A stretch of 13,522 nt of DNA from a virus. A program made the translations under genes and the position numbers. Below the pieces are notes generated by a model. The model was not told where the DNA came from. It worked only from the letters and a program-made list of their open reading frames with translations, and ran no database searches. Shown here piece by piece: positions 12,838 to 13,386 of the stretch (positions are counted from its first letter, which is position 1; the number at the start of each line of letters is the position of its first letter). The stretch lies in the UHGV virus genome UHGV-0292061. One strand, 5' to 3'.

Positions 12838-13386
12838 TCAATTATCTTCCAGGCCGGATGCTATCAACGAAAGTCTCTCAAAAAACGCTGTAGCAGCCTT
12901 GTCCAAAGTTGAATAAGTACTGTATTCTCCGTGTTCGGGACCAACCACTACCCATGGTCGTCTTTTTGGGATTCGGGATTTCTCAGAAATCACTGTTCCA
13001 GATATACCAATATCAATTGTTACACCTGTTATTATTTTCTCTTCATCTCTTTCCCTGAACTCAATTGCCATAAATGCCGTTTTTTTTCGTTTCCCGTTTT
13101 TAAAAAAATCAAATAAAGCAAAGCGATGCTCATTAAAATCAACACCCCATCGTCCTTCAGGATAAAGGGCATGAAAGTTGTCATTTACGCTCTGCATCGT
13201 CTCATAAGCTTTAACTTCTAAATCTCCATAGTGCATAGATACCGCGCAGGAGTTACTGGGTAACTGTATTTTCCCAAGATTGAAAACCTTTACTGCTCCA
13301 GAACTATGGCATCTTGCCCGCAACTTATCCCCATTTATACTAATCGGAGAAATATTCCTTAATGTTCCGGGCTGGCTCCCTCCTAA
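12838..13386 (-). pseudogene. Hypothetical protein of unknown family; reading frame runs open into the IS5 end, so the 5' part appears removed by the insertion
   Basis: Frame is open from the stop at 12838 up to the IS5 inverted repeat at 13387; internal ATGs at 13236 and 13197 lack convincing RBSs. The region is visibly more A+T-rich than the structural genes. I recognise no motif or family. Confidence 0.5.

What the first reader, a model, noticed from the sequence alone, without database searches (positions are those of the whole stretch)
12838..13386. A+T-rich cargo ORF of unknown family, cut at its 5' end by IS5
The minus-strand frame ending at 12838 stays open all the way to the IS5 terminal repeat, with no credible RBS-preceded start inside. 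So this looks like the 3' part of a gene whose start was displaced by the insertion. Its composition is visibly more A+T-rich than the flanking phage genes and it has its own strong terminator downstream, the usual signature of a laterally acquired moron. I cannot place the protein (segments such as FALFDFFKNGKRKKTAFMAIEFRERDEEKIITGVTIDIGISG and RPWVVVGPEHGEY) in any family I know. Accessory genes at this late-operon position are often host-interaction or anti-phage functions, which makes this the best candidate for something undescribed.
Basis: partly seen in the sequence, partly recalled or inferred. Interest (0 to 1): 0.65.

Follow-up and report, generated by a model that had tools for sequence, protein, structure and literature searches.

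The report
IS5-cut prophage WYL-domain sensor gene
This is the dead 3' nine-tenths of a prophage accessory gene, cut by an IS5 insertion; its intact form encodes a small, uncharacterised protein that has a WYL ligand-sensing domain but no DNA-binding or enzyme part.

Summary
A minus-strand frame with its stop at 12838-12840 stays open to the IS5 left end at 13387, has no credible internal start, and is 40.6% G+C against 52.4% for the rest of the window. Intact alleles in 51 complete E. coli genomes are 205 codons long, so IS5 removed codons 1-23 together with the ribosome-binding site. The copy in this window is a recent pseudogene: its 549 nt match the intact allele.

The "own terminator" is a backbone hairpin shared with about 1400 genomes, most of which lack this gene. 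The gene sits in a variable cargo slot between Q and that terminator.

My best reading is a non-catalytic binder of single-stranded nucleic acid with a role in phage-host conflict. That function is inferred, not shown. Interest is moderate to low.

The parts
12838..13386 (-). The 3' fragment (codons 24-205 plus the stop codon) of a 205-codon prophage cargo gene for an HTH-less WYL-domain protein. It is a pseudogene here.
   Evidence: Its translation is identical to residues 24-205 of the intact allele in L001 and L068. It has no usable start codon.
13261..13386 (-). The remaining part of the WYL beta-barrel (residues 24-65). Helix alpha1, strand beta1 and the invariant Tyr23 are missing.
12841..13203 (-). 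The C-terminal alpha/beta domain (residues 85-205), with no family or fold assignment. Its conserved residues are W103, K119, N120, G121, K125, R166, P167, W168, A187 and F191.
13383..13386 (.). The IS5 target tetranucleotide CTAA (TTAG on the gene strand), at the boundary of codons 24 and 25.
   Evidence: It is read directly from the sequence. A different IS5-family element uses the same TTAG in L069 and duplicates it there.
13387..13522 (+). The left end of IS5: the 16-bp terminal repeat at 13387-13402 and the transposase start codon at 13455, which reads away from the cut gene.
   Evidence: It is 100% identical to annotated IS5 copies.
12684..12709 (-). An intrinsic-terminator hairpin (AAACCCGC-CACUGA-GCGGGUUU followed by a U run). 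It is a conserved backbone element, not part of the cargo.
   Evidence: The fold is. It is shared by 1448 records, most of which lack the ORF. In L004 the same hairpin occurs on both sides of a different cargo gene.
12756..12837 (-). The cargo-specific 3' untranslated stretch. Homology with prophages that lack the gene ends between 12707 and 12755.
   Evidence: The end points of the partial matches are listed.

Best explanation
The region is the inactivated remnant of a single-gene prophage cargo module. The intact gene encodes a 205-aa soluble protein with two domains. The N-terminal part is a WYL (Sm/SH3-like) barrel. The C-terminal part is an alpha/beta domain seen so far only fused to this WYL domain.

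I infer that the protein clamps a short stretch of single-stranded nucleic acid, or a related phosphate-bearing ligand, in the basic and aromatic WYL groove. Conserved basic and aromatic residues of the C-terminal domain probably help close the site, as the linker and WCX domain do in DriD.

The protein has no helix-turn-helix and no conserved catalytic-type residues. Its output must therefore come from binding, sequestration or protein-protein contact, not from transcription control or catalysis. Its most likely role is in phage-host or phage-phage conflict.

In intact loci the gene follows Q directly. Its Shine-Dalgarno sequence and start codon are buried in a 21-bp-stem hairpin, which suggests restrained translation.

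In this window IS5 inserted at the TTAG in codons 24-25. That removed the hairpin leader, the ribosome-binding site and residues 1-23, including the invariant ligand-contact Tyr23. The copy here makes no functional protein.

Shown: the truncation, the domain identities, the conservation, the genomic slot and the purifying selection. Inferred: the ligand, the way the protein acts and the biological role.
For: Truncation:
- Intact alleles are 205 aa and the junction falls after codon 23.
- The truncated frame has no usable start codon.

WYL domain:
- Pfam WYL scores 16.5 bits over residues 8-64.
- 40 of 110 relatives hit Pfam WYL, with a best E-value of 4.8e-8.
- A profile of the family finds DriD, BrxR and CapW in the PDB.
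- The AF2 model has a mean pLDDT of 86.

Ligand residues:
- Y23, S27 and R33 are 100%, 93% and 100% conserved. In the HMM alignment they align with DriD Tyr168, Ser172 and Arg178, which contact the ssDNA backbone (PMC9186387). The Y168A mutation abolishes DriD activation (PMC10853764).
- K56, F58 and K62 fit the canonical R.F...RI pattern of WYL domains (this mapping is my own).

No HTH and no catalytic residues:
- The barrel starts at about residue 18, and no other Pfam family matches.
- No D, E or H position is conserved. K119, K125, R166, W103 and W168 are conserved in the C-terminal domain.

Real and selected gene:
- 957 clusters, nearly all 190-205 aa.
- dN/dS 0.20.
- 46 of 50 IMG/VR copies are intact.

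Cargo and conflict context:
- The slot between Q and the backbone terminator holds different unknown genes in other prophages.
- Relatives lie beside GmrSD and HEPN genes, between integrase and repressor genes, or next to Rha in phage contigs.

Leader hairpin: dG -26.9 kcal/mol, z -4.7, retained in the allele with 72% identity.
Against: - No ligand, oligomeric state or phenotype has been measured for any member of the family.
- The E. coli protein itself scores below Pfam's WYL gathering threshold (16.5 against 21.8 bits).
- DriD Arg176 and the motif tyrosine Tyr192 are not conserved here. WYL domains also bind ssRNA and c-di-GMP (PMC11880434, abstract), so ssDNA is only the leading candidate.
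- The relative placement of the two domains in the model is uncertain (pTM 0.58), so a shared binding cleft is conjecture.
- No conserved partner gene was found.
- There is no match to any known defence protein beyond weak WYL hits.
- Other cargo genes in the same slot are equally anonymous.
- The promoter that drives the gene was not located.
Confidence: 0.6

Rival explanations
1. The intact protein is a one-gene prophage defence or superinfection-exclusion factor. The WYL module senses nucleic acid from an invading phage and triggers exclusion or abortive infection. This rival concerns the biological role and is compatible with the binding mechanism above.
For: - The gene is A+T-rich cargo in a variable prophage slot.
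- One relative lies next to GmrSD_N and HEPN genes. Another lies between integrase and repressor genes in a temperate phage.
- Some members carry N-terminal transmembrane helices, or C-terminal zinc ribbons plus transmembrane segments, like sensor-effector fusions.
- Translation looks tightly restrained by the leader hairpin.
- The gene has been disrupted independently several times, which would fit a costly gene.
Against: - PADLOC gives no hit beyond weak WYL matches.
- The E. coli form has no recognisable effector domain and no membrane segment.
- 46 of 50 copies are intact, so strong counter-selection is not evident.
- Decay of prophage genes is common without any cost being involved.
Confidence: 0.25
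2. The protein is a phage counter-defence decoy. As a WYL module without a DNA-binding domain, it soaks up the single-stranded DNA signal, or forms mixed dimers with host WYL repressors such as CapW and BrxR. Host immune operons would then stay repressed while the prophage replicates.
For: - The ssDNA-contact residues of DriD are conserved, while the HTH is absent.
- Host WYL repressors of CBASS and BREX are released by ssDNA (PMC11662680, abstract).
- The gene follows Q directly, so it could be transcribed as the prophage moves into late development.
Against: - Membrane-anchored relatives are hard to fit into a sponge role.
- There is no expression timing data.
Confidence: 0.15
3. The protein is a ligand-sensing partner of the adjacent Q antiterminator or another phage regulator. 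It would act as the detached WYL half of a split regulator that tunes late transcription to DNA damage.
For: - Q and the gene have diverged together as a pair: 86% and 72% identity in two prophage lineages.
- In one distant phage contig the gene starts 9 nt after a CI-like HTH gene and is followed by a sigma-like gene.
- WYL activators such as DriD and PafBC act directly on RNA polymerase.
Against: - A related Pfam Phage_antitermQ-type Q (122 aa) occurs without this gene in L003.
- Most relatives have no HTH neighbour. Their neighbours are terminase, integrase, HEPN or DUF4124 genes.
- There is no evidence of physical interaction.
Confidence: 0.08
4. The truncated frame in this window is still expressed, either from the TTG inside the IS5 end (13401) or from an internal start codon, and yields a partly functional protein.
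For: - The frame continues 15 nt into IS5 to a TTG.
- The coding sequence has not decayed further: the 801-nt query 12586-13386 is 99.9% identical to the intact allele.
- From general knowledge, IS5 insertions are known to activate neighbouring genes.
Against: - No start codon has a usable Shine-Dalgarno sequence.
- The product would lack helix alpha1, strand beta1 and the invariant Tyr23 of the WYL barrel.
- The IS5 transposase gene reads away from the fragment.
- The lack of further decay is explained simply by a recent insertion.
Confidence: 0.04

Closest known systems
DriD (Caulobacter crescentus), an ssDNA-sensing wHTH-WYL-WCX transcription activator (PDB 7tzv, 8tp8)
   Same: - It is the best sequence and structure match for the N-terminal domain.
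- The motif Y-x-G-G-S-x-P-G-x-x-R-E-I/V-x-P is shared, including the ssDNA phosphate contacts Tyr168, Ser172 and Arg178, which correspond to Y23, S27 and R33 here.
   Different: - The protein here has no wHTH, no three-helix bundle and no recognisable WCX dimer domain.
- Arg176 and the motif tyrosine Tyr192 are not conserved.
- The protein is 205 aa against 327 aa, and is carried by phages as stand-alone cargo.
CapW and BrxR, WYL repressors of the CBASS and BREX defence operons (PDB 7tb6, 9c5g, 7t8k, 7qfz)
   Same: - Both are associated with phage-host conflict.
   Different: - CapW and BrxR are dimeric DNA-binding repressors encoded next to the operons they control.
- This protein lacks the HTH and the WCX domain and has no conserved neighbour.
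WYL-domain proteins that lack a wHTH (under 10% of known WYL-domain proteins), such as the WYL domain of PIF1 helicase or the Cas13d accessory protein WYL1
   Different: - In those proteins the WYL domain is attached to a helicase, or to a ribbon-helix-helix domain that works with a Cas effector.
- Here the only partner is a private 120-aa alpha/beta domain, and there is no associated enzyme.
Cargo ('moron') genes downstream of Q in lambdoid prophages, such as stx in Stx phages and nmpC in DLP12 (itself cut by IS5 in K-12; recalled from memory)
   Same: - The gene is A+T-rich cargo in the variable slot just after the Q gene and ahead of the lysis cassette.
- It has been inactivated by IS5.
   Different: - The product is unrelated to toxins or porins.
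- The cargo lies upstream of the conserved terminator hairpin, so it may not be part of the Q-dependent late transcript at all.

Membership tests
WYL domain superfamily (Pfam PF13280) | An Sm/SH3-like five-stranded beta-barrel preceded by a helix | tested here: met
   [not shown]
WYL domain superfamily (Pfam PF13280) | A profile-HMM score above Pfam's gathering threshold | tested here: inconclusive
   The E. coli protein scores 16.5 bits against a cut-off of 21.8. However, 40 of 110 relatives match at E <= 0.01, with a best E-value of 4.8e-8. The family profile also retrieves WYL proteins from the PDB at E 1e-4.
WYL domain superfamily (Pfam PF13280) | A conserved, positively charged ligand groove. 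The name-giving W-Y-L motif is optional. | tested here: met
   Y23, R33 and K56 are invariant. S27, F58 and K62 are at least 93% conserved. Three of these align with DriD's ssDNA contacts. The W-Y-L position itself reads D-K-L.
wHTH-WYL-WCX transcription factors (DriD, CapW, BrxR, PafBC) | An N-terminal winged helix-turn-helix DNA-binding domain | tested here: not met
   Only 17 residues (one helix) precede the barrel. No HTH family appears in the Pfam, NCBIfam or PADLOC scans.
wHTH-WYL-WCX transcription factors (DriD, CapW, BrxR, PafBC) | A C-terminal WCX dimerisation domain | tested here: not met
   [not shown]
wHTH-WYL-WCX transcription factors (DriD, CapW, BrxR, PafBC) | Binding of single-stranded DNA as the effector | not testable with these tools
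   Only the conservation of contact residues could be examined.
IS5 insertion | The 16-bp terminal inverted repeat GGAAGGTGCGAACAAG, with the transposase gene starting about 70 nt inside | tested here: met
   The repeat is at 13387-13402 and the transposase ATG is at 13455. The stretch is 100% identical to annotated IS5 copies.
IS5 insertion | A 4-bp target (YTAR) duplicated at both ends of the element | tested here: inconclusive
   CTAA abuts the element at 13383-13386. The other end lies outside the window. The same TTAG is visibly duplicated by a different IS5-family element in L069.
   There is no such hit. Q is the separate 123-aa gene upstream in intact loci, carrying PF06530.
Known anti-phage defence proteins (PADLOC-DB 2.0) | A significant match to a defence-system protein model | tested here: not met
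   Only weak hits to the generic 'WYL' accessory models were found, at E 0.0015-0.0085. The same holds for eight relatives.
Lambdoid 'moron' in the strict sense | An autonomous unit with its own promoter and its own terminator | tested here: inconclusive
   The composition and the variable slot fit. However, the terminator belongs to the backbone, and no convincing sigma-70 promoter was found upstream. There is only an isolated TATAAT after the Q stop codon.

The most novel reading that the evidence does not exclude
The intact family is a widespread, phage-borne, stand-alone sensor of single-stranded nucleic acid that works without any DNA-binding or enzymatic domain. It would act either as a decoy that blunts the host's WYL-controlled immune derepression (CapW, BrxR) or as a new single-protein exclusion system. 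The hairpin-locked translation and the repeated independent knock-outs would then reflect a real fitness cost.
Probability: 0.2. Interest if true: 0.7.

Novelty: new variant of a known kind. Interest (0 to 1): 0.35.

Why it matters
The copy in this window is a dead gene and tells us little by itself. It does point to a large, uncharacterised family: 957 clusters at 50% identity, mostly in temperate phages and mobile contexts.

In this family the WYL domain is best known as the ssDNA-sensing switch of DNA-damage and immune regulators. Here it is detached from any DNA-binding domain and joined to a private C-terminal domain.

Working out what such a protein does with its ligand would extend the WYL domain's known uses beyond transcription control. 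It could also reveal a new way for phages to exclude rivals or evade host defences. The intact E. coli allele is small and soluble, and it sits in well-studied prophage backgrounds, so it is easy to test.

Tried and rejected
1. Chance ORF. Rejected: intact homologues exist, the family has 957 clusters, and dN/dS is 0.20.
2. Q antiterminator or any named family for the whole protein. Rejected.
3. A terminator that belongs to the ORF. Rejected: it is shared backbone.
4. Fold assignment for the C-terminal domain.
   - Foldseek against the PDB and BFVD gave nothing beyond the WYL barrel.
   - AFDB50 was unavailable.
   - A profile of the C-terminal domain alone found only proteins with the same two-domain layout, plus a marginal PDB hit (1ylx, E 0.19).
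5. A conserved partner gene. None was found across genome, viral and metagenome contexts.
6. The extra C-terminal domain of the long relatives (P0068, phage PY3 gp2). It has no Pfam or PDB match.
7. Known defence genes among the other cargo in the same slot. None were found.
8. The late promoter pR'.
   - In the ydfT-type Q locus (L004), a TTGCAT-17-TAAGAT promoter about 45 nt before the first copy of the hairpin looks like pR'-tR'.
   - In the Q type next to this gene I could not place the promoter confidently. Whether the gene is read from the early or the late transcript stays open.
9. The source genome and the other IS5 junction. No complete E. coli genome carries this junction, and exact-product look-ups of the longest frames failed.
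10. Rfam. Nothing reached a gathering score.
11. Literature. No paper mentions the protein accessions. The Gifsy-1 paper that mentions WYL concerns other genes.

Full report
**1. What is in the sequence**

The window is a lambdoid prophage of Escherichia coli with its genes on the minus strand. They include terminase, portal, a lysis cassette and a DNA methyltransferase.

The flagged frame has its stop codon at 12838-12840 and stays open to 13386. There it meets GGAAGGTGCGAACAAG..., the left end of IS5. The 136 nt of this element in the window are 100% identical to copies annotated as IS5, which occur up to 28 times per genome. The IS5 transposase gene starts at 13455 and reads away from the frame.

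The frame runs 15 nt into IS5, to a TTG at 13401. Neither that codon nor any of the eight internal ATG/GTG/TTG codons has a usable Shine-Dalgarno sequence.

G+C is 40.6% (third codon positions 32.8%), against 52.4% for the rest of the window.

**2. What was lost**

The 801 nt from 12586 to 13386 match 51 complete E. coli genomes over their full length, at 99.4-99.9% identity. In these genomes the gene is 618 nt (205 codons) and starts 69 nt beyond the IS5 junction.

One draft genome (L068) carries the same prophage backbone, 99.8% identical over window 4838-13390, with the gene intact.

IS5 inserted at the TTAG that spans codons 24-25. It displaced residues 1-23 (MDKNVEHVLVDAIENKQSLTVVY) together with the ribosome-binding site. 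The remaining 182 codons are identical to the intact allele, so the insertion is recent. No complete E. coli genome in the collection carries this junction.

**3. The protein**

- *Sequence searches on the intact protein.* Pfam gives a sub-threshold WYL hit over residues 8-64. PADLOC gives weak WYL hits. NCBIfam gives nothing. PHROGs gives a full-length match to phrog_8498, of unknown function.
- *Size of the family.* The word-indexed database returned only nine relatives. A five-sequence profile searched against 1.84 billion cluster representatives found 957 clusters at E <= 1e-3 and 192 at E <= 1e-30. Nearly all are 190-205 aa and cover the full length.
- *WYL evidence from relatives.* Of 110 aligned relatives, 40 match Pfam WYL, with a best E-value of 4.8e-8. 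None matches anything in its C-terminal half.
- *Structure.* An AlphaFold2 model built on this alignment has a mean pLDDT of 86. It shows a helix and barrel at residues 4-63, a disordered linker at 65-85, and an alpha-beta3-(loop)-beta2-alpha domain at 87-204.

**4. The likely ligand site**

The family profile aligns Y-x-G-G-S-x-P-G-x-x-R with DriD residues 168-178. In DriD, Tyr168, Ser172 and Arg178 hydrogen-bond to the ssDNA backbone (PMC9186387). The Y168A mutation abolishes DriD activation (PMC10853764).

The equivalent residues here are Y23, S27 and R33, which are 100%, 93% and 100% conserved. K56, F58 and K62 are at least 94% conserved and fit the canonical R.F...RI pattern of WYL domains. 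By my own mapping, which was not tested structurally, K56 and F58 correspond to DriD Arg204 and Trp206.

In the C-terminal domain the conserved residues are basic or aromatic: K119, K125, R166, W103 and W168. No acidic or histidine position is conserved.

There is no HTH, because only one helix precedes the barrel. I therefore read the protein as a non-catalytic binder of single-stranded nucleic acid or a related phosphate-bearing ligand. This is inference. WYL domains are also known to bind ssRNA and c-di-GMP.

The IS5 cut removes helix alpha1, strand beta1 and Tyr23. Any product from this window would lack part of the barrel and a key contact residue.

**5. Genomic setting**

In intact loci the gene follows a 123-aa Q antiterminator (Pfam Phage_antitermQ) after 75 nt. 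Downstream come a hairpin terminator, a small conserved ORF, a DNA methyltransferase and the lysis genes.

The terminator lies at window 12684-12709 on the minus strand and has an 8-bp G+C-rich stem followed by a U run. It is not private to the gene:
- 1448 records share the downstream block, but only about 51 of them carry the gene.
- The homology with those records ends between 12707 and 12755.

In other prophages the same slot holds different anonymous genes on either strand (L003, L004 and L005). In L004, which has a ydfT-type Q, a promoter-like TTGCAT-17-TAAGAT is followed after about 45 nt by this hairpin. A cargo gene comes next, and then a second copy of the hairpin. This suggests that the hairpin is the late terminator on which Q acts.

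For the Q type next to our gene I could not place the late promoter. Whether the gene is read from the early or the late transcript remains open.

A second allele with 72% identity lies in the same position, behind a Q that is 86% identical. dN/dS between the two alleles is 0.20.

**6. Relatives elsewhere**

No conserved neighbour emerged. Relatives were found in these settings:
- beside GmrSD_N and HEPN genes in Leucothrix;
- after a CI-like HTH gene and before a sigma-like gene in one phage contig;
- between terminase or tail genes and Rha in others;
- between the integrase and repressor genes in Pseudoalteromonas phage PY3, as a 369-aa form with a further unknown domain.

Some members carry N-terminal transmembrane helices, or C-terminal zinc ribbons plus transmembrane segments. 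These contexts fit a role in phage-host conflict but do not prove one. No member matches a known defence protein beyond weak hits to the generic WYL models.

**7. Verdict**

- The truncation and the cargo nature are confirmed.
- "Unknown family" should read [quoted passage not shown].
- The terminator claim is wrong.
- The copy in the window is an ordinary IS-generated pseudogene.

The family behind it is uncharacterised and moderately interesting. It is a new architectural variant of a known sensor domain, common in temperate phages. Function and mechanism remain inferred, and simple binding and phage-challenge experiments would settle them.

Noticed in passing
L001 6866-6914 (minus strand), just outside the window's copy; also L056 about 4955-5003: In intact alleles the Shine-Dalgarno sequence (GGGAGG) and the start codon lie inside a 49-nt hairpin with a 21-bp stem. 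Its dG is -26.9 kcal/mol and its z-score is -4.7, and none of 200 shuffles folds as well. An anti-SD CCUCC pairs with the SD. The structure is kept in the allele with 72% identity, through one-sided changes only. It could lock translation, serve as an RNase III site or act as a DNA palindrome. IS5 has removed it from the window's copy.
   Followed up: partly
L069 6583-7850; L061 3805-5000; L050, L051 and L060 (gene at about 5001-5615): The same gene has been knocked out independently elsewhere. In L069 a different IS5-family element sits at exactly the same TTAG, in the opposite orientation and with a visible TTAG duplication. In L061 that element sits at another TTAG, at codon 79. Two nonsense mutations fall in the conserved FKNGK motif (K119*, K122*), and there is one frameshift. 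Even so, 46 of 50 IMG/VR copies are intact.
   Followed up: partly
L004 about 2603-2622 and about 3200-3225 (minus strand); window 12684-12709: In a prophage with a ydfT-type Q, the same terminator hairpin (AACCCGCCACTGAGCGGGTTTTTT) occurs twice, on both sides of an unrelated 141-aa cargo gene. The first copy lies about 45 nt after a TTGCAT-17-TAAGAT promoter. This looks like a pR'-tR' unit, with cargo inserted by recombination at the terminator.
   Followed up: partly
window 12710-12739 (minus strand): A conserved block, GTTAAGAGTGGTTACTTCGCCACACAACTT, lies just upstream of the terminator. It contains a small hairpin (GUGG...CCAC) and is shared by prophages with different cargo and different small-Q alleles. 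Its role is unknown; it could be part of the late leader or a Q-utilisation region.
   Followed up: no
window 12580-12716 (plus strand): There is a sub-threshold Rfam match to the enterobacterial sRNA candidate STnc130 (30.1 bits against a gathering score of 55, E 0.03, full model length). It lies antisense to the late direction and ends at the terminator hairpin. It is probably weak or due to chance.
   Followed up: partly
window 12358-12585 (minus strand): A small conserved ORF lies directly after the terminator. It is 75 codons from the first ATG and is annotated as 65-67 aa elsewhere. It is present in most of the roughly 1400 related prophages and has no Pfam or PADLOC match.
   Followed up: partly
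window 11155-12207 (minus strand): A 350-aa N6/N4 DNA methyltransferase (Pfam E 2.7e-42) sits between the terminator region and the holin gene, with no partner restriction enzyme. It is an orphan methylase in the late region, conserved across these prophages.
   Followed up: partly
P0127, P0141, P0144, P0156, P0089, P0068; L066 2006-3115: Some family members add N-terminal transmembrane helices, C-terminal zinc ribbons plus transmembrane segments, or a further domain of about 170 aa. That domain is shared by P0068 and Pseudoalteromonas phage PY3 gp2 and has no Pfam or PDB match.
   Followed up: partly
residues 100-120 and 165-192 of the intact protein (window about 13099-13158 and 12880-12963): A profile of the C-terminal domain gives a marginal, colinear two-segment match (E 0.19) to PDB 1ylx, a 103-aa Bacillus protein of unknown function. 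The PW-V...F...A...F pattern also recalls DUF2188-type proteins; that resemblance is from memory and was not tested.
   Followed up: no
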